A stretch of DNA of 64,000 nucleotides from IMG/VR virus record IMGVR_UViG_3300043172_001413. The stretch is one strand, 5' to 3'. The stretch comes from a virus. Within the stretch, counting starts at the first letter, position 1; the number at the start of each line of letters is the position of its first letter. A program made the translations under genes and the position numbers. Below, piece by piece: positions 536 through 2,939 of the stretch. Below the pieces are notes generated by a model. That model searched no databases. It worked only from the letters and a program-made list of their open reading frames with translations, and was not told the DNA's origin.

Positions 536-607
536 GGCTGTCTAGCTGAGACGGATTAGCAGTGGACCGAAAATCCACGGAGGGCAGTTCGATACTGTCG
601 GCAGCCA
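536..607 (+). tRNA. tRNA-like, possibly a degenerate tRNA-Phe(GAA) copy with C33
   Basis: Acceptor ggctgtc pairs with ggcagcc. A T-arm ggcag-ttcgata-ctgtc is present. The anticodon arm tgga-ccgaaaa-tcca resembles the next Phe gene but carries C33. D-arm is irregular. Confidence 0.35.
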
Positions 608-611
608 CCTT

Positions 612-684
612 GCCACTTTAGCTCAGTCGGTAGAGCAGAGGACTGAAAATCCTTGTGTCCCAAGTTCAATTCTTGGAGGTGGCA
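612..684 (+). tRNA. tRNA-Phe (GAA)
   Basis: gccactttagctcagtcggtagagcagaggactgaaaatcc...ggaggtggca. Anticodon loop is ctgaaaa. No encoded CCA. Confidence 0.8.
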
Positions 685-698
685 TCTTTGAAATTTAC

Positions 699-782
699 GC
701 TGTTGTGGCGGAATTGGTATACGCGCTAGGTTCAGGACCTAGTGGGAGCAATCCCATGCTGGTTCAAGTCCAGTCAACAGCA
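699..782 (+). tRNA. tRNA-Leu (CAG), long variable arm
   Basis: Acceptor gctgttg pairs with caacagc. Anticodon arm ctagg-ttcagga-cctag. Long variable arm. T-arm ggttcaagtcc. Confidence 0.8.
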
Positions 783-851
783 TTAAAATAAACTGTTCAT
801 TAAATTAAGCTGTTTGTTAATAATGAACAAAGGAGAAAAGTGAACAAATAA

Positions 852-929
852 GGCGCTGTAACTCAGTCCGGTGAGAGTGACTCTCTGATAAGGAGTTGGT
901 CGAAAGTTCAAATCTTTCCAGCGCCACCA
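852..929 (+). tRNA. tRNA-Ile (GAU)
   Basis: ggcgctgtaactcagtccggt...actct-ctgataa-ggagt...cagcgcc a cca. CCA is encoded. Confidence 0.8.
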
Positions 930-954
930 GAAAGTAAAGTTCTTTTAAATAAAT

Positions 955-1041
955 GCGGATGTGGTGGAATTGGTATACACGCAAGGTTAAGGACCTTGTG
1001 GGAGCAATCTCGTGCTGGTTCAAGTCCAGTCATCCGCACCA
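955..1041 (+). tRNA. tRNA-Leu, anticodon reads AAG (unusual A34), long variable arm
   Basis: Paralog of the 699-782 gene. Acceptor gcggatg pairs with catccgc. Anticodon arm caagg-ttaagga-ccttg. CCA is encoded. Confidence 0.65.
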
Positions 1042-1042
1042 T

Positions 1043-1119
1043 GCGCCCTTAGCTCAGTTGGTAGCAGCAACGCCCTTTTAAGGCGTAGGTCATTGGTTCG
1101 ATCCCAATAGGGCGTACCA
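1043..1119 (+). tRNA. tRNA-Lys (UUU)
   Basis: gcgcccttagctcagttggtagcagca acgcc-cttttaa-ggcgt aggtc attgg-ttcgatc-ccaat agggcgt a cca. Confidence 0.75.
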
Positions 1120-1196
1120 TTTAATTTTGAAAGAAAAGAGGTTCAAGGTGAGGTTGAACTCATCGTTTTTTAAACGTTTCCGGTTTAAAAGTTTTC

Positions 1197-1268
1197 GGGT
1201 CTGTAGCCAAGTGGTAAGGCTTCCGGCTTTTAACCGGAATATCGCAAGTTCGATCCTTGCCAGGCCCA
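1197..1268 (+). tRNA. tRNA-Lys (UUU), second copy on a different scaffold
   Basis: gggtctgtagccaagtggtaaggc t tccgg-cttttaa-ccgga atatc gcaag-ttcgatc-cttgc caggccc a. Confidence 0.65.
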
Positions 1269-1278
1269 TTTTGTAAAC

Positions 1279-1355
1279 GCCTCCGTAGCTCAGTTGGTAG
1301 CAGCATCTGCCTCTTAAGCAGGGGGTCGTAGGTTCGAAACCTACCGGGGGTACCA
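1279..1355 (+). tRNA. tRNA-Lys (CUU)
   Basis: Paralog of the 1043-1119 gene. Anticodon arm tctgc-ctcttaa-gcagg. CCA is encoded. Confidence 0.7.
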
Positions 1356-1388
1356 TAAATTTGGACAGATTGACAAATAATAAAATAC

Positions 1389-1474
1389 GGAGAGATAGGT
1401 TAATTGGTAAATCAGCACCCTGCTAAGGTGCCGTCCGAAAGGACTTCCGAGTTCGAGTCTCGGTCTCTCCGCCA
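1389..1474 (+). tRNA. tRNA-Ser (GCU), long variable arm
   Basis: ggagagataggttaattggtaa...gcacc-ctgctaa-ggtgc, variable arm cgtccgaaaggact, T-arm tccgagttcgagtctcgg, tctctcc g cca. Confidence 0.8.
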
Positions 1475-1682
1475 TAAAGGATAAAAAGATGGACGCAACA
1501 AGTAAAGCAAAAGAGTGGCACACAAAAGAACAGGAACGGATCGCAAAACAAGGTTTCCGTAAAGAGAATGGCGGTCAGCTTGTAGGAGTAGTAACAGGAT
1601 GGGGAAGAAAAAAAAGACGAATAAACAGAAAGCCCTGGTTAAAAGGAAACCTTGTAACAGAGATTGCAAGAACTGTAACAGG

Positions 1683-1988
1683 TTAAGATGTTAAACGGAT
1701 GTCTTGGAGACCGGTCATATCTATCATGTCTTGTTCTTCATCCCATTCAAAAAGAAAAGAAGGAGGTTCTGGAATAGCTCGTTGTTTAAGTTCCCATATA
1801 AGGCGATGGACTTTTTGAGCTATGTACTCTATGTTAGGTTCGGAATAACCTTCGTCTGTGATAGTATTGTCTCTAACTCCAGGACCGTAAAGCATAAAAC
1901 CTCCTTTATATAAAGATAGTATGAAATTGATTGTTTGTCTGTGACGGTAGTCACATATGTTATAAAAAGTTAAGGGCGGTATGGCCAA
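1683..1988 (-). CDS. hypothetical protein encoded inside the tRNA array
   Basis: 101-aa ORF on the opposite strand, lying between tRNA-Ser and tRNA-Cys. Its annotated start overlaps the first nucleotides of the tRNA-Cys gene. Confidence 0.3.
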   Translation of the reverse strand: MAIPPLTFYNICDYRHRQTINFILSLYKGGFMLYGPGVRDNTITDEGYSEPNIEYIAQKVHRLIWELKQRAIPEPPSFLFEWDEEQDMIDMTGLQDIRLTS

Positions 1989-2048
1989 GTGGTAAGGCAG
2001 AAGTCTGCAAAACTTCTATCTCCAGTTCAAATCTGGATACCGCCTCCA
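1975..2048 (+). tRNA. tRNA-Cys (GCA)
   Basis: ggcggtatggccaagtggtaaggca gaagt-ctgcaaa-acttc tatc tccag-ttcaaat-ctgga taccgcc t cca. Confidence 0.8.
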
Positions 2049-2059
2049 AAATTCTTTGA

Positions 2060-2277
2060 AATAGAATAGTTGAGCCGGACCTACGCGCAGGATGTTTATC
2101 CTGTGAGGAAGCTCAGGTCACTACTGCTGAAGGAAGGAGATGAGAATCGCTGGCACTTCCGAGGGTGCAACTCCGAGTTCGGTATATGCGGGTGAGCAGC
2201 GCTGTGATTACCTGGTTGGAGGCTTAGACAAATGTAGGTATTGGAACAGAAACCTGGCTATGAGCTTAACTATTTAC
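2060..2277 (+). ncRNA. unassigned ORF-free structured segment inside the tRNA array
   Basis: About 215 nt with no ORF of 60 aa or more in any frame. Has several short inverted repeats (ccgag...ttcgg, acctgg...). No T-arm, so it is not a tRNA or tmRNA. Confidence 0.25.
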
Positions 2278-2363
2278 GGAGGGTTAGTATAATTGATAAT
2301 GCAGCGGTTTTGAAAGCCGCCGTCCGCAAGGGCTTACAGGTTTGAGTCCTGTACCCTCCGCCA
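2278..2363 (+). tRNA. tRNA-Ser (UGA), long variable arm
   Basis: ggagggttagtataattgataat gcggt-tttgaaa-gccgc, variable arm cgtccgcaagggctt, T-arm acaggtttgagtcctgt, accctcc g cca. Confidence 0.75.
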
Positions 2364-2437
2364 TAAATTAATGTTCTTTGAAATTTCTATTGTTATGAAG
2401 TCAGCACATTTTATTTGTAAAAGATTGTGAAGGTTAC

Positions 2438-2513
2438 GGTGTAGGTCGTCCAGTGGTCAGGGCCCCGGATTGTGGTTCCGGAGACGGGAGTTCAACTCTC
2501 CTCCTTCACCCCA
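2438..2513 (+). tRNA. tRNA-His (GUG) with G-1
   Basis: An extra 5' G precedes gtgtagg. Anticodon arm ccgga-ttgtggt-tccgg. T-arm gggag-ttcaact-ctcct. Acceptor 3' strand ccttcac, discriminator c, then cca. One acceptor-stem mismatch. Confidence 0.7.
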
Positions 2514-2539
2514 TCTTCTTTCAAATAAATGAGTTACAA

Positions 2540-2621
2540 GGGAGTACTGGGCATTGGTGAGCCCCCTTGACTGTAGATCAAACGCCTTCGGGCTGTGGTG
2601 GTTCAACTCCATCTGCTCCCA
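2540..2621 (+). tRNA. tRNA-Tyr (GUA), long variable arm
   Basis: gggagtactgggcattggtgagccc, anticodon arm cttga-ctgtaga-tcaaa, variable arm cgccttcgggctg, T-arm tggtggttcaactccatc, tgctccc a. Confidence 0.7.
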
Positions 2622-2715
2622 TTTGTCAATTATAACCGAGAGGCTACGGCTACGGAAAGAAATTGCCCATTTACGACCGTCCGGGGGGAAGAACCTGGTC
2701 TCGGTTTCCTTATCG

Positions 2716-2758
2716 ATTTGTAGAGGATTATAAATTATATCAAAATCCTCTACAAATC
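2716..2758 (+). other. perfect 14-bp stem-loop between tRNA-Tyr and tRNA-Ser
   Basis: atttgtagaggatt ataaattatatcaaa aatcctctacaaat. No trailing T-run, so it may be a processing or regulatory hairpin rather than a terminator. Confidence 0.5.
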
Positions 2759-2767
2759 AACTTTTCT

Positions 2768-2853
2768 GGAGGGTTAGTATAATCGCTAATACAGCAGTTT
2801 CGAAAGCTGCCGCCTGAAAGGGCTTATAGGTTGGAGTCCTATACCCTCCGCCA
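2768..2853 (+). tRNA. tRNA-Ser (CGA), long variable arm
   Basis: Paralog of the 2278-2363 gene. Anticodon arm gcagt-ttcgaaa-gctgc. accctcc g cca. Confidence 0.75.
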
Positions 2854-2854
2854 T

Positions 2855-2939
2855 GGAGGAGATCCCGAACGGTTAGGGAGCCGGTTGGAATCCGGTGGGC
2901 TGAAAGGCTCGGCAGGTTCGACTCCTGTCTCCTCCGCCA
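2855..2939 (+). tRNA. tRNA-Ser (GGA), long variable arm
   Basis: ggaggagatcccgaacggttaggga, anticodon arm gccgg-ttggaat-ccggt, variable arm gggctgaaaggctcg, T-arm gcaggttcgactcctgt, ctcctcc g cca. Confidence 0.75.

What the first reader, a model, noticed from the sequence alone, without database searches (positions are those of the whole stretch)
536..2939. Dense 16-gene tRNA array with all four Ser isoacceptors, three Lys genes and atypical members
About 2.4 kb carries tRNAs for Phe, Leu (two genes), Ile, Lys (three genes), Ser (GCU, UGA, CGA, GGA), Cys, His and Tyr on one strand. One Leu paralog reads with A34 (AAG), which is not a normal bacterial Leu anticodon. A degenerate Phe-like copy carries C33, as does tRNA-Pro(UGG) at 23513. 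With about 14 more tRNAs elsewhere, the window holds roughly 30 tRNAs. That scale matches tRNA-rich jumbo or megaphages or tRNA-array elements. The duplicate Lys genes and redundant Ser genes suggest codon-usage compensation for a particular host.
Basis: seen in the sequence. Interest (0 to 1): 0.6.

Follow-up and report, generated by a model that had tools for sequence, protein, structure and literature searches.

The report
Phage tRNA array hiding mini RNase P
The dense tRNA gene cluster is real and belongs to a huge phage, and one of its gaps carries a gene for a stripped-down RNase P ribozyme, the RNA enzyme that trims new tRNAs, which I could not find reported for any virus.

Summary
ARAGORN and Rfam find 15 tRNA genes, not 16, at 536-2939, all on the + strand, with the stated anticodons. 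Leu(AAG) has A34 at 989. Phe has C33 at 568, and Pro(UGG) has C32 and C33 at 23545-23546. The window holds 27 tRNAs, one of them a tRNA-Asn split by a group I intron.

The sixteenth RNA gene, at 2067-2272 between tRNA-Cys and tRNA-Ser(UGA), is a 206-nt RNase P RNA. It keeps the catalytic domain: P1-P6, P15-P17, CR-I, CR-IV and CR-V, the bulged U of P4, J5/15 and the L15 GGU. It lacks the specificity domain and P18.

Relatives occur in at least 75 IMG/VR contigs and in the published 595-735 kb huge-phage genomes, where they are unannotated. They usually sit inside same-strand tRNA arrays. Across 57 distinct sequences, 93.5% of pair cells form pairs against 31-40% in controls, including two pseudoknots the alignment model did not contain.

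The most likely function is 5' processing of the phage's own pre-tRNAs, probably with host RnpA; this is inferred, not shown. The tRNA sets are complete per amino acid, so they do not look like targeted codon compensation. I found no prior description. Catalysis is untested.

The parts
536..609 (+). tRNA-Phe(GAA) with C32 and C33 (C33 at 568); the 3' end reads ACC followed by U
   Evidence: ARAGORN; Rfam tRNA 44.6 bits; loop CCGAAAA. A relative in L320 has U33 in the same anticodon stem.
612..684 (+). canonical tRNA-Phe(GAA), starting 2 nt after the first Phe gene; no encoded CCA
   Evidence: (69.8 bits).
699..782 (+). tRNA-Leu(CAG), a paralog of Leu(AAG)
852..929 (+). tRNA-Ile(GAU), CCA encoded
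955..1041 (+). tRNA-Leu(AAG), A34 at 989, loop UUAAGGA. It fills the slot normally held by Leu(GAG), which is absent from the window.
   Evidence: (55.1 bits). CUU plus CUC make up 39% of Leu codons. Leu(AAG) also occurs in L134, L165 and L170.
1043..1119 (+). tRNA-Lys(UUU), with a G1-U72 pair, a paralog of Lys(CUU)
1197..1268 (+). tRNA-Lys(UUU), a second and different lineage; no encoded CCA
   Evidence: 70 bits.
1279..1355 (+). tRNA-Lys(CUU)
1389..1474 (+). tRNA-Ser(GCU)
1489..1686 (+). small basic ORF (65 aa) in the 500-nt gap of the array; function unknown
   Evidence: Called as a gene in L195 and L196; no Pfam match.
1683..1895 (-). small ORF (70 aa) on the opposite strand; function unknown
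   Evidence: Called as a gene in L195 and L196; no Pfam match.
1975..2048 (+). tRNA-Cys(GCA), U73, CCA encoded; ends 18 nt before the RNase P RNA
2067..2272 (+). Miniature RNase P RNA, 206 nt, catalytic domain only. P1 2067-2077/2261-2272; P2 2079-2084/2234-2239; P3 2088-2092/2099-2103; CR-I GAGGAA 2105-2110; P4 2110-2118 (bulged U at 2113) paired with 2252-2259; P5 2119-2122/2164-2167; P6 pseudoknot 2124-2128/2195-2199; P7-like helix plus stub hairpin 2132-2160; J5/15 GCAA 2167-2170; P15 2171-2174/2218-2221; P16 and P17 within 2181-2212; L15 GGU 2214-2216; CR-IV 2225-2234; CR-V ACAGAA 2246-2251. No specificity domain and no P18.
   Evidence: Rfam RNaseP_arch 50.8 bits, E about 1e-13, full model, with 85 S-domain positions replaced by 1 nt. 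Family covariation. Conserved core nucleotides. Coordinates checked.
2278..2363 (+). tRNA-Ser(UGA); starts 5 nt (UUUAC) after the RNase P RNA
2438..2513 (+). tRNA-His(GUG) with encoded G-1 (2438) opposite C73, the bacterial type
   Evidence: plus reading of the sequence.
2540..2621 (+). tRNA-Tyr(GUA) with a long variable arm, the bacterial type; no encoded CCA
   Evidence: 40 bits.
2622..2767 (+). structured spacer: a cloverleaf-like three-way junction (about 2634-2706) followed by a 15-bp hairpin (2715-2758); function unknown
   Evidence: MFE -44.6 kcal/mol, z = -3.85, 0 of 200 shuffles fold as well. No homolog in the fetched loci.
2768..2853 (+). tRNA-Ser(CGA), a paralog of Ser(UGA)
2855..2939 (+). 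tRNA-Ser(GGA), 1 nt after Ser(CGA)
   Evidence: ARAGORN. In Rfam it matches only tRNA-Sec, 37.5 bits, below threshold. The cloverleaf was checked by eye.
4116..4191 (+). tRNA with anticodon CAU. It lacks initiator features, so it is an elongator Met or the lysidine-dependent Ile2 decoder of AUA (AUA is 37% of Ile codons).
   Evidence: the Met-or-Ile2 assignment is inference.
7707..7788 (+). tRNA-Leu(UAG)
9704..9789 (+). tRNA-Leu(UAA)
10896..10982 (+). tRNA-Leu(CAA)
12162..12235 (+). tRNA-Arg(CCU)
21476..21550 (+). tRNA-Gln(CUG)
21773..21849 (+). tRNA-Pro(CGG)
22259..22337 (+). tRNA-Pro(GGG)
22434..22507 (+). tRNA-Asn(GUU)
23155..23426 (+). second tRNA-Asn(GUU), split between U35 and U36 by a 197-nt group I intron (23189-23385). 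Exons are 23155-23188 and 23386-23426.
   Evidence: Rfam Intron_gpI 77.8 bits against a gathering score of 50. P1 pairing GGCUGU/GGCAGCC was read from the sequence. ARAGORN calls the spliced sequence a 75-nt tRNA-Asn.
23513..23589 (+). tRNA-Pro(UGG) with C32 and C33 (23545-23546); the only UGG decoder in the window
   Evidence: (60.2 bits). Of 120 viral tRNAs with the same anticodon arm, 119 have UU; one diverged phage tRNA (L374) also has CC.
23680..23755 (+). tRNA-Gln(UUG)

Best explanation
The interval is part of the tRNA gene region of a huge phage, or phage-like element, that infects a bacterium. The window carries 27 tRNA genes on one strand and supplies every isoacceptor for the amino acids it covers. 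The tRNAs are packed 1-150 nt apart and are presumably transcribed as multi-tRNA precursors. Embedded in the array, 18 nt after tRNA-Cys and 5 nt before tRNA-Ser(UGA), is a gene for a 206-nt RNase P RNA reduced to its catalytic domain.

Proposed mechanism, which is inferred and not shown. The RNA is released from the same precursor by the cuts that free its tRNA neighbours. It folds through the P4 and P6 pseudoknots and binds the acceptor end of pre-tRNAs through J5/15 and the L15 GGU. It then removes 5' leaders, most probably together with the host's RnpA protein. This would keep phage tRNA maturation independent of host RNase P RNA supply, for example after host shut-off or genome degradation.

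The unusual anticodon-loop bases (A34 in Leu, C32 and C33 in Pro and Phe) are real features that recur in phage tRNAs. Leu(AAG) takes the place of Leu(GAG) and is probably read as IAG if a TadA-type deaminase accepts it. What the C33 variants do remains open; evasion of an anticodon nuclease is one possibility.
For: What is shown.
(1) The tRNA calls and anticodons.
(2) The stretch 2067-2272 aligns end to end with Rfam's RNase P model at E about 1e-13, with CR-I, CR-IV and CR-V present and the S-domain deleted.
(3) A strict CR-IV/CR-V/P4 pattern hits 75 IMG/VR contigs, against my estimate of about 1-2 by chance. In 65 of 76 cases an AGGAA motif plus a P4 5' strand with a bulged U lies 110-273 nt upstream and pairs with the 3' strand at 7-8 of 8 positions, using many different sequences.
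(4) A covariance model built from the window sequence alone finds 69 matches. On their alignment, 93.5% of pair cells are paired against 31-40% when partners are slid. The covariation score is 0.64 against about 0.07, and 51 of 56 pairs change on both sides. The P4 (96% paired) and P6 (88% paired) pseudoknots were not in the model and still covary.
(5) Core nucleotides that were not part of the search pattern are nearly invariant: GAGGAA, the bulged U, the J5/15 AA and the L15 GGU.
(6) Context. All or nearly all tRNAs in these loci lie on the RNA's strand, with a median of 8 per locus. In 15 of 68 cases a tRNA starts within 20 nt of the RNA's 3' end. Cellular RNase P genes found with the same pattern have a median of 0 tRNAs nearby.
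(7) The family grades from a 299-nt form that passes Rfam's bacterial type A threshold (L153, 189 bits, inside a tRNA array) down to forms of about 190 nt.
(8) The model is specific: 1 hit in 862 kb of other tRNA-rich viral loci.
(9) Matches are present in the 735-, 642- and 635-kb published huge-phage genomes.

From the literature. The C-domain alone is catalytically active, needs a P6 or P6-mimic interaction and does not need P18 (PMC5839562). That is the architecture retained here.

For translational autonomy. The isoacceptor sets are complete and cover even rare codons.
Against: No experiment or transcript data show that the RNA is made or that it cleaves anything. Removing the S-domain lowers the efficiency of bacterial RNase P RNAs (PMC5839562), so activity in the cell is not assured.

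No rnpA-like gene was found in the window or near 80 family members, so the protein partner is assumed to be the host's. Only 64 kb of a genome larger than 200 kb was visible.

Only about 1 in 100 other tRNA-rich viral loci carry the RNA within the stretch fetched, so it is not a general requirement of phage tRNA arrays. Encoded CCA does not correlate with the RNA across the family. In two of the three GenBank genomes examined (LR745206.1 and LR756502.1) no tRNA lies within 6 kb of the RNA.

The host is unknown, and phage identity rests on relatives and accessory genes; no capsid or terminase gene lies in the window. My literature search covers open-access papers and bioRxiv only.
Confidence: 0.65

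Rival explanations
1. Codon-usage compensation only. The array tops up tRNAs for codons the phage uses more than its host does, and the duplicated Lys and Ser genes reflect that demand.
For: Lys is the most used amino acid in the element's ORFs (9.2% of codons, 70% AAA), and there are two Lys(UUU) genes. CUU plus CUC make up 39% of Leu codons and are served by Leu(AAG).
Against: The sets are complete rather than selective. Ser(CGA) serves UCG, which is 4% of Ser codons. All three Pro decoders and all five Leu decoders are present. This idea does not explain the RNase P RNA in the array. The host's codon usage is unknown, so the key comparison was not possible. This rival does not exclude the best explanation.
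Confidence: 0.25
2. Counter-defence tRNAs. The array replaces host tRNAs destroyed by anticodon nucleases such as PrrC, PARIS AriB or retron effectors. The C32/C33 and A34 variants would be versions those nucleases cannot recognise.
For: Phage tRNAs with anticodon-loop changes that escape host nucleases have been described (PMC10264068, PMC11464382, PMC11555353). Lys, a classic nuclease target, is present three times. The CC at positions 32-33 of Pro(UGG) departs from the UU seen in 119 of 120 viral tRNAs with the same arm, and it recurs in a diverged tRNA of another tRNA-rich phage. C33 occurs in 2.3% of 657 phage tRNAs, across many isoacceptors. The window is rich in counter-defence genes: NAD+ salvage, NADAR and Acb1-like.
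Against: The host, its tRNAs and its nucleases are all unknown. The Phe copy with C33 sits beside a canonical Phe gene and could simply be drifting. U33 is important for the anticodon U-turn, so C33 may cost function. This rival does not exclude the best explanation.
Confidence: 0.3
3. The RNase P-like RNA is not an enzyme. It would be a decoy that soaks up host RnpA or another RNase P-binding factor, or a cis-acting structure that only guides host processing of the polycistronic transcript.
For: The substrate-binding S-domain is gone. The regions that bind RnpA in bacterial holoenzymes (P2-P4 and the CR-IV/CR-V strands) are retained. No phage rnpA was found.
Against: The nucleotides needed for chemistry and for holding the substrate's acceptor end are nearly invariant: the bulged U in P4, GAGGAA, ACAGAA, the J5/15 adenosines and the L15 GGU. 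P6 covaries as well. A mere protein sponge would not need L15 or J5/15. Engineered C-domains with this same architecture are active (PMC5839562).
Confidence: 0.15
4. The window is cellular DNA or a plasmid, for example a bacterial tRNA-array element or a small-genome symbiont, and the RNA is that organism's housekeeping rnpB.
For: No capsid, portal or terminase gene lies in the 64 kb. Reduced RNase P RNAs also exist in DPANN archaea (spacing 150-165 nt). Megaphages and megaplasmids are hard to tell apart (PMC8172020).
Against: Relatives of the RNA lie in curated complete huge-phage genomes. The closest protein match is a 462-kb phage. The window holds HNH endonucleases, Acb1-like, endonuclease VII and NADAR genes. 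Most of its ORFs have no family match. Cellular rnpB loci have almost no neighbouring tRNAs.
Confidence: 0.04
5. A34 and C33 are sequencing or assembly errors, or they mark pseudogenes.
For: Raw reads were not inspected. The Phe copy with C33 scores lowest but one among the array's tRNAs (44.6 bits).
Against: The sequence is identical in three assemblies made by at least two pipelines. The same oddities recur in independent phages: Leu(AAG) three more times, C33 in 13 other tRNAs besides the window's two, and CC in Pro(UGG) of L374. Cloverleaves are intact and above the Rfam threshold.
Confidence: 0.04

Closest known systems
Bacterial type A RNase P RNA (E. coli M1 RNA; Rfam RF00010)
   Same: Same core: P1-P5, the P4 pseudoknot with a bulged U, the P6 pseudoknot, P15-P17, J5/15 adenosines, the L15 GGU that pairs with the tRNA 3' CCA, and CR-I, CR-IV and CR-V. 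One family member (L153) passes the RF00010 threshold at 189 bits. L153 also aligns with a Salmonella rnpB.
   Different: About 206 nt instead of about 380. The whole specificity domain (P7-P14) is replaced by a stub of about 29 nt, and P18 is absent. The gene is carried by a virus inside a tRNA array rather than being a lone chromosomal housekeeping gene. P4 is one pair longer, ending GGYUA, as in archaeal and Mycoplasma RNAs.
Type T RNase P RNA of Pyrobaculum and relatives (Lai et al. 2010, PNAS 107:22493; cited from my own knowledge and from the reference list of PMC12974513)
   Same: A natural RNase P RNA of about 200 nt that keeps the catalytic domain and has lost most of the specificity domain.
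   Different: Type T is the housekeeping enzyme of an archaeal cell and works with archaeal protein subunits. The RNA here is phage-borne, sits among bacterial-type tRNAs (G-1 His, class II Tyr) and grades into bacterial type A forms. I take the reductions to be independent.
Engineered catalytic-domain-only RNase P RNAs (Eco CP RPR and the Pyrococcus furiosus C-domain; Mao et al. 2018, PMC5839562)
   Same: The same retained elements. Those constructs show that a C-domain cleaves substrates without the S-domain, depends on P6 or a P6-mimic, and does not need P18.
   Different: Those are laboratory deletions with reduced efficiency. The RNA here is a naturally evolved, widespread family under purifying selection, with its own conserved stub motif (GGAG...CG...AC).
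Theta (HDV-like) ribozymes next to phage tRNA genes (PMC10879173)
   Same: Phage-encoded ribozymes embedded in tRNA clusters and proposed to make phage tRNA maturation independent of host RNases.
   Different: Theta ribozymes are small, self-cleaving and cis-acting, and they work on the 3' trailer. The RNA here is a homolog of the trans-acting, multiple-turnover 5' processing enzyme.
tRNA arrays of huge and jumbo phages (Al-Shayeb et al. 2020, PMC7162821; T4 and T5 tRNA clusters)
   Same: Tens of tRNA genes on one strand, interspersed with small ORFs and homing endonucleases, in genomes larger than 200 kb.
   Different: That study annotated only tRNAs and tmRNAs, and its text mentions neither RNase P nor ribozymes. 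The RNA reported here is present but unannotated in its largest genomes.
tRNA-Leu(IAG) of Lactobacillales (PMC13249217)
   Same: A tRNA-Leu(AAG) gene is present and no tRNA-Leu(GAG) is seen. CUU and CUC are heavily used.
   Different: Here the gene is carried by a phage. Whether any TadA deaminates it is unknown. Only 64 kb of the genome was seen, so a Leu(GAG) gene may lie elsewhere.

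Membership tests
RNase P RNA (Rfam clan CL00002, type A architecture) | CR-I (GAGGAA) followed by the P4 5' strand with a bulged U | tested here: met
   Window 2105-2118, U at 2113. In the family, GAGGAA is present in 54-55 of 55 sequences and the bulged U in 55 of 55.
RNase P RNA (Rfam clan CL00002, type A architecture) | CR-IV and CR-V (UAGAYRAAUG ... ACAGAA) followed by the P4 3' strand | tested here: met
   Window 2225-2259. These motifs were used as the search pattern, so their conservation across the family reflects how the sequences were chosen.
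RNase P RNA (Rfam clan CL00002, type A architecture) | Long-range P4 pseudoknot supported by covariation | tested here: met
   96.1% of cells paired, and 5 of 8 pairs change on both sides. P4 was not part of the covariance model used to align the sequences.
RNase P RNA (Rfam clan CL00002, type A architecture) | P1-P3, P5, P15-P17 and the P6 pseudoknot | tested here: met
   All helices are 79-98% paired and show changes on both sides. P6 is 87.6% paired with all 5 pairs covarying, and it was not in the model.
RNase P RNA (Rfam clan CL00002, type A architecture) | J5/15 adenosines and the L15 GGU that contact N-1 and the 3' CCA of the substrate | tested here: met
   GCAA at 2167-2170 and GGU at 2214-2216. 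In the family, AA is present in 55-56 of 56 sequences and GG in 46-48 of 48 ungapped sequences.
RNase P RNA (Rfam clan CL00002, type A architecture) | Specificity domain (P7-P14) that reads the tRNA T and D loops | tested here: not met
   85 model positions are replaced by 1 nt in the cmscan alignment. Only a P7-like helix and a 3-bp hairpin remain, at 2132-2160.
RNase P RNA (Rfam clan CL00002, type A architecture) | P18 helix | tested here: not met
   P15 runs directly into CR-IV in the window RNA. P18 is dispensable for C-domain catalysis (PMC5839562).
RNase P RNA (Rfam clan CL00002, type A architecture) | Score at or above the Rfam gathering threshold | tested here: not met
   Window 50.8 bits against 84; L038 61.3 against 84. 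Family member L153 does pass, 189.3 against 100.
RNase P RNA (Rfam clan CL00002, type A architecture) | Endonucleolytic removal of pre-tRNA 5' leaders | not testable with these tools
   This needs a cleavage assay or in-vivo complementation.
RNase P RNA (Rfam clan CL00002, type A architecture) | Partner protein RnpA | tested here: inconclusive
   No RnpA-like ORF in the window or in about 80 family loci; best E = 1.7 with a crude three-sequence profile built from sequences I recalled. No Pfam hit for the two small ORFs in the array. Most of the genome was unseen, and the host's RnpA could serve.
Type T RNase P RNA (Thermoproteaceae) | About 200 nt, C-domain kept, S-domain nearly absent | tested here: met
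   206 nt.
Type T RNase P RNA (Thermoproteaceae) | Housekeeping gene of a crenarchaeal cell | tested here: not met
   The context is a phage with bacterial-type tRNAs.
Type T RNase P RNA (Thermoproteaceae) | Best match to the type T model (RF02357) | not tested
   cmscan reports only the best family of a clan. RNaseP_arch won for the window and RNaseP_bact_a for L063, L153, L139 and L159.
Huge-phage tRNA array | Many tRNA genes clustered on one strand in a phage genome larger than 200 kb | tested here: met
   27 tRNAs, all on the + strand. Source contig of 0.2-1 Mb. Relatives are huge phages.
Huge-phage tRNA array | Virion or packaging genes on the same molecule | tested here: inconclusive
   None of the window's ORFs that were scanned is a virion or packaging gene. 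The full contig could not be retrieved.
tRNA-Leu(IAG) decoding system (Lactobacillales type) | A Leu(AAG) gene replaces Leu(GAG) | tested here: inconclusive
   True within the 64 kb. The rest of the genome and the host were unseen.
tRNA-Leu(IAG) decoding system (Lactobacillales type) | A34 deaminated to inosine by TadA | not testable with these tools
   This needs tRNA sequencing or a deamination assay.
Nuclease-evading phage tRNAs (PMC10264068) | An anticodon-loop substitution at a position recognised by a host anticodon nuclease | tested here: inconclusive
   C32 and C33 depart from the UU consensus (119 of 120) and recur in L374, but the host and its nucleases are unknown.
Group I intron in a tRNA gene | Rfam Intron_gpI above threshold, P1 pairing with a U-G at the 5' splice site, and exons that join into a tRNA | tested here: met
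   77.8 bits against 50. P1 was read from the sequence. The spliced product is called tRNA-Asn.

The most novel reading that the evidence does not exclude
Huge phages encode their own RNase P ribozymes. On this reading, a widespread, naturally evolved family of catalytic-domain-only RNase P RNAs (about 190-300 nt) is transcribed within phage tRNA operons and takes over 5' maturation of phage pre-tRNAs, alone or with the host's RnpA. These would be the first virus-encoded RNase P enzymes. They would also be a second, independent natural loss of the specificity domain, after Pyrobaculum type T.
Probability: 0.5. Interest if true: 0.9.

Novelty: new variant of a known kind. Interest (0 to 1): 0.82.

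Why it matters
RNase P is treated as a universal cellular housekeeping enzyme, and reviews describe phage tRNAs as substrates of the host's RNase P (PMC11143913, PMC10879173). A phage-borne RNase P RNA would add the key tRNA-processing ribozyme to the list of translation components that huge phages carry. It would support the view that these phages build a largely host-independent tRNA supply.

It would also provide dozens of natural minimal ribozymes showing which parts of RNase P RNA evolution keeps when the specificity domain is lost: P6, the L15 GGU and a new conserved stub. That bears directly on long-running work on the minimal catalytic core and on how substrates are recognised without T-loop reading.

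There is a practical point too. These RNAs score below Rfam's gathering thresholds, which explains why Rfam screens of megaphages reported only tRNAs and a tmRNA (PMC8172020). A dedicated model would annotate them.

The recurrent C33 and A34 tRNAs are a smaller lead on how phage tRNAs depart from cellular rules.

Tried and rejected
- Megablast of 1-4300 and blastn of the RNase P RNA against GenBank phages found nothing. Only a query made by concatenating 36 family members found the huge-phage genomes.
- The first, loose DNA pattern gave mostly chance hits. It was rescued by a CR-I filter and replaced by a stricter pattern.
- A two-sequence MAFFT seed misaligned P3 and P16. I used a single-sequence covariance model instead.
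- I tested whether phages with this RNA preferentially encode CCA, to fit the L15 GGU. They do not: CCA encoding is bimodal, 0% or about 100% per phage.
- I looked for a phage RnpA and for any protein family that travels with the RNA. Neither was found; the largest family covered 6 loci.
- A search for close relatives of the Leu(AAG) tRNA in IMG/VR gave 0 hits.
- Attempts to retrieve the full source contig failed.
- The structured stretches 200-475 and 2622-2767 have no Rfam family and no homolog in the fetched loci.
- Ten full-text literature searches, plus targeted reading of the RNase P review, the jumbo-phage review, the huge-phage paper, the megaphage Rfam screen and a 2026 RNase P evolution paper, found no report of a virus-encoded RNase P RNA. 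This covers open-access papers and bioRxiv only.
- Lai et al. 2010 is not held.
- tRNAscan-SE and read mapping were not available.

Full report
**1. The observation**

ARAGORN finds 26 tRNA genes in the window, all on the + strand. Rfam's tRNA model passes its gathering score for 25 of the 26. The exception is Ser(GGA) at 2855-2939. ARAGORN calls it with a good class II cloverleaf, but in Rfam it scores best against tRNA-Sec, at 37.5 bits and below that family's threshold.

The atypical bases are all there:
- Leu(AAG) has the loop UUAAGGA, with A34 at 989. It is a close paralog of Leu(CAG) at 699-782.
- The first Phe gene has the loop CCGAAAA, with C33 at 568.
- Pro(UGG) at 23513-23589 has the loop CCUGGGA, with C32 and C33 at 23545-23546.

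Contigs from a Logan assembly of SRR11832402 and from JGI metagenome 3300043219 are 100% identical to the window over 9.5 and 5.4 kb, including most of the array. These bases are therefore not artefacts of one assembler. The samples may be the same, and raw reads could not be inspected.

Two counts need correcting. The interval holds 15 tRNAs, not 16. The window holds 27 tRNAs, not about 30. The 27th is a tRNA-Asn(GUU) at 23155-23426, split by a 197-nt group I intron that ARAGORN cannot see unspliced.

**2. What else is in the interval**

The gaps between the tRNAs are not empty. With permissive thresholds, Rfam aligns 2067-2272 end to end with an RNase P model (RNaseP_arch, 50.8 bits, E about 1e-13). 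The score is below the gathering score of 84. The alignment shows P1, P2, P3, CR-I, P5, a P15-type hairpin, CR-IV and CR-V, while 85 model positions of the specificity domain are replaced by a single nucleotide.

Reading the sequence directly gives the following (checked):
- GAGGAA at 2105-2110.
- P4 formed by AGC(U)CAGGU at 2110-2118, paired with ACCUGGCU at 2252-2259, with the universally conserved bulged U at 2113.
- A P6 pseudoknot, CUGCU at 2124-2128 paired with AGCAG at 2195-2199.
- J5/15 GCAA at 2167-2170.
- An L15 GGU at 2214-2216.
- ACAGAA at 2246-2251.

The RNA begins 18 nt after the CCA of tRNA-Cys and ends 5 nt (UUUAC) before tRNA-Ser(UGA). With this gene included, the interval does hold 16 RNA genes.

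**3. Is it real, and is it more than a relic?**

A pattern taken from CR-IV, CR-V and the P4 3' strand hits 75 IMG/VR contigs of 4.8-501 kb. I estimate one or two hits by chance. In 65 of 76 cases an AGGAA motif followed by a P4 5' strand with a bulged U lies 110-273 nt upstream. It pairs with the 3' strand at 7-8 of 8 positions, using many different sequences.

A covariance model built from the window sequence alone finds 69 matches in these loci. It finds only one match in 862 kb of other tRNA-rich viral loci that were chosen through a tRNA-Pro pattern, so it is specific.

On the 57 distinct aligned sequences:
- 93.5% of pair cells form standard pairs, against 31-40% when the 3' partners are slid by 1-3 columns.
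- The covariation score is 0.64 against about 0.07.
- 51 of 56 pairs show changes on both sides.

The alignment was fitted to the nested helices, which favours them. The P4 and P6 pseudoknots were not in the model, and they are 96% and 88% paired with abundant compensatory changes. That is an independent check.

Nucleotides that were not part of the search pattern are nearly invariant: GAGGAA, the bulged U, the two J5/15 adenosines and the L15 GGU. A motif in the residual stub (GGAG...CG...AC) is also conserved. The family is under selection for an RNase P catalytic-domain fold.

**4. Context**

In the viral loci the tRNAs are almost always all on the RNA's strand, for example 29 of 29 and 24 of 24. 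The median is 8 tRNAs per locus. In 15 of 68 cases a tRNA starts within 20 nt of the RNA's 3' end, and in 8 of 68 a tRNA ends within 20 nt of its 5' end.

The same pattern in cellular genomes picks up housekeeping RNase P RNAs of Methanobacteria, Bathyarchaeia, DPANN archaea and Mycoplasmoidaceae. Those have CR-I to CR-IV spacings of 150-290 nt and a median of zero tRNAs nearby.

The phage family spans a range of sizes. L153, from a 332-kb contig, carries a 299-nt RNA inside a dense tRNA array; it passes Rfam's bacterial type A threshold at 189 bits and aligns with a Salmonella rnpB. At the other end are forms of about 190 nt. I read this as capture of a type A rnpB followed by stepwise loss of the S-domain and P18. 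That is an inference.

A concatenated family query finds matches in the largest published phage genomes: LR756501.1 and LR756503.1 (735 kb), LR756502.1 (642 kb), LR745206.1 (635 kb) and LR756511.1 (595 kb). All of these records lack annotation. The model confirms three of them at 78, 70 and 31 bits.

**5. The carrier**

Window proteins are on record on a contig of 0.2-1 Mb. The closest match among deposited phage records for an SPFH-domain protein is the 462-kb uncultured phage LR756500.1 (55% identity), followed by crAss-like phages.

The window carries:
- five HNH endonucleases among the tRNAs;
- a NADAR domain protein, NAPRTase and NAD synthase;
- an Acb1/2H-like gene and an endonuclease VII gene;
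- PP2C and kinase-like genes, and a vault-shoulder/SPFH protein.

Most ORFs have no family match, and no virion gene lies in these 64 kb. The encoded G-1 of tRNA-His, the class II tRNA-Tyr, Shine-Dalgarno-like sequences and a strong sigma-70-type promoter point to a bacterial host. The host itself is unknown.

**6. How it most likely works**

What is shown is a conserved RNase P catalytic-domain RNA, embedded in and co-oriented with tRNA arrays of huge phages. The rest is inference.

I propose that the RNA is cut out of the same precursors as its tRNA neighbours and then removes the 5' leaders of phage pre-tRNAs. Three points from established knowledge support feasibility (PMC5839562):
- The C-domain of type A RNase P RNA cleaves substrates without the S-domain.
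- That activity depends on P6 or a P6-mimic.
- It does not need P18.

That is the set of elements kept here. The regions that bind RnpA in bacterial holoenzymes are also kept. No rnpA-like ORF was found in the window or near 80 family members, and no other protein family travels with the RNA. The host's RnpA, or no protein at all, is therefore the likely partner.

The benefit would be a tRNA supply that does not depend on host RNase P RNA once host transcription stops. This fits the complete isoacceptor sets for Leu, Ser, Pro, Gln and Lys, which cover even rare codons such as UCG (4% of Ser codons).

A non-catalytic decoy role cannot be excluded. It would not, however, explain the conservation of J5/15 and L15.

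**7. The atypical tRNAs**

*Leu(AAG).* It is unusual but has precedent. In several Lactobacillales families it replaces Leu(GAG) and is converted to IAG by TadA (PMC13249217). In the window there is no Leu(GAG), and CUU plus CUC make up 39% of Leu codons. Leu(AAG) also occurs in three other phage arrays examined, alongside other A34 tRNAs that are not Arg.

*C33.* It occurs in 15 of 657 distinct phage tRNAs (2.3%), across many isoacceptors.

*Pro(UGG).* Of 120 viral tRNAs with the same anticodon arm, 119 have UU at positions 32-33. The one other CC is in a tRNA only 84% identical to the window's, in another phage with 31 tRNAs in 13 kb. This suggests a recurrent, possibly selected variant.

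*Phe with C33.* A relative carries U33 in the same anticodon stem, and a canonical Phe gene sits beside it in the window, so drift in a redundant copy is equally possible.

Evasion of anticodon-loop nucleases is an attractive reading (PMC10264068), but it cannot be tested without the host.

**8. Comparison with what is known**

The RNA works like, and is homologous to, type A RNase P RNA. It fails two family features, the S-domain and P18, and it falls below the Rfam threshold. I therefore file it as a new variant rather than an ordinary member.

It resembles Pyrobaculum type T in being reduced to the catalytic domain, but it has a different carrier and lineage. It complements the theta ribozymes, which are cis-acting 3' processors next to phage tRNAs (PMC10879173).

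I found no report of a virus-encoded RNase P RNA:
- The 2024 RNase P review discusses phage tRNAs only as host RNase P substrates.
- The jumbo-phage genomics review and the huge-phage paper do not mention RNase P.
- A 2026 paper on RNase P evolution mentions neither virus nor phage.
- A full Rfam screen of megaphages at default thresholds reported only tRNAs and a tmRNA. This is what one would expect if the reduced forms score below Rfam's gathering thresholds, as the window RNA and L038 do.

The search is limited to open-access papers and bioRxiv, so an earlier report elsewhere is possible.

**9. Verdict**

The codon-compensation reading is weak. The most important content of the interval is the miniature RNase P RNA and the phage-wide family it belongs to. 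Its homology and structural conservation are firmly established here; its catalytic role is probable but untested.

Noticed in passing
window 23155-23426 (intron 23189-23385); ORF 22562-23164: A second tRNA-Asn(GUU) is interrupted between U35 and U36 by a 197-nt group I intron. An HNH_3/HTH endonuclease ORF ends inside the first bases of the tRNA. The spliced product is a perfect 75-nt tRNA with U1-A72, G73 and CCA.
   Followed up: yes
window 168-465: A near-consensus promoter (TTGACA, 17 nt, TATTAT at 168-196) and an intrinsic terminator (438-462) bracket an unannotated stretch of about 260 nt. It folds much better than shuffled sequence (z = -4.4). It has no Rfam family and no homolog in the fetched loci. 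It is a candidate phage small RNA just upstream of the array.
   Followed up: partly
window 2622-2767: The spacer between tRNA-Tyr and tRNA-Ser(CGA) folds into a cloverleaf-like three-way junction plus a 15-bp hairpin (z = -3.85). No tRNA finder calls it and no homolog was found. It could be a tRNA-like element or a processing or termination signal.
   Followed up: partly
window, 5' leaders of many tRNAs (e.g. 694-698, 2273-2277, 2433-2437, 12157-12161, 23675-23679): A UUUAC or UUAC motif recurs directly upstream of many tRNA 5' ends and directly after several encoded CCA ends. It also sits between the RNase P RNA and tRNA-Ser(UGA). It may be a conserved leader or processing signal.
   Followed up: no
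window 5191-5841, 30752-33232, 33978-35153, 37369-38259, 40540-42249, 42391-43314, 46325-47503, 57855-58562: The window is rich in accessory genes. These include a NADAR domain protein, NAPRTase and NAD synthase (NAD+ salvage), an Acb1/2H phosphoesterase-like gene, PP2C and kinase-like proteins, an 826-aa protein with major-vault-protein shoulder and SPFH domains, and a GluR0-like ligand-gated channel (SBP_bac_3 plus Ion_trans_2). Several of these look like counter-defence genes.
   Followed up: partly
L136:21-867 (-): The 5' half of an RNase P-like RNA (682-867) and the CR-IV/CR-V pattern (21-55) lie about 630 nt apart on the same strand. The RNA may carry a large insertion, or there may be two copies.
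   Followed up: no
L038:426-1037 (-): In the 416-kb viral contig that carries the closest relative of the window's RNase P RNA, a tmRNA match (652-1037) abuts or overlaps a group I intron match (426-667). This may be an intron-containing phage tmRNA.
   Followed up: no
L374 (137-kb viral contig), 1-13000: 31 tRNAs lie in 13 kb, including Pro(UGG) with C32 and C33 and a tRNA-Ile(AAU) with A34. No RNase P-like RNA was detected in the stretch fetched.
   Followed up: partly
L198, L210, L212, L215, L220, L223, L244, L253, L261, L268 (genome contigs): In several DPANN MAGs (Aenigmatarchaeota and Micrarchaeota) and in two unclassified archaeal MAGs, the RNase P RNA has a short CR-I to CR-IV spacing of 150-165 nt, against about 205 nt in Methanobacteria. 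This suggests reduced specificity domains in these cellular lineages too. L201, a 3-kb contig from a Roizmanbacteria MAG with 13 tRNAs and a spacing of 140 nt, looks like a misbinned phage fragment.
   Followed up: no
window 1043-1119 and 1279-1355: The paralogous Lys(UUU) and Lys(CUU) genes both begin with a G1-U72 wobble pair in the acceptor stem. The other Lys(UUU), at 1197-1268, has G1-C72 and no encoded CCA, so it has a separate origin.
   Followed up: no
loci L126, L132, L167, L179, L189 and others near the RNase P-like RNA: A Tpt1/KptA-like (RNA 2'-phosphotransferase-like) ORF recurs within 3 kb of the RNA in about 6 loci. This assignment comes from reading the sequence, not from a family search. 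It is the largest co-localised protein cluster found but is far from universal.
   Followed up: no
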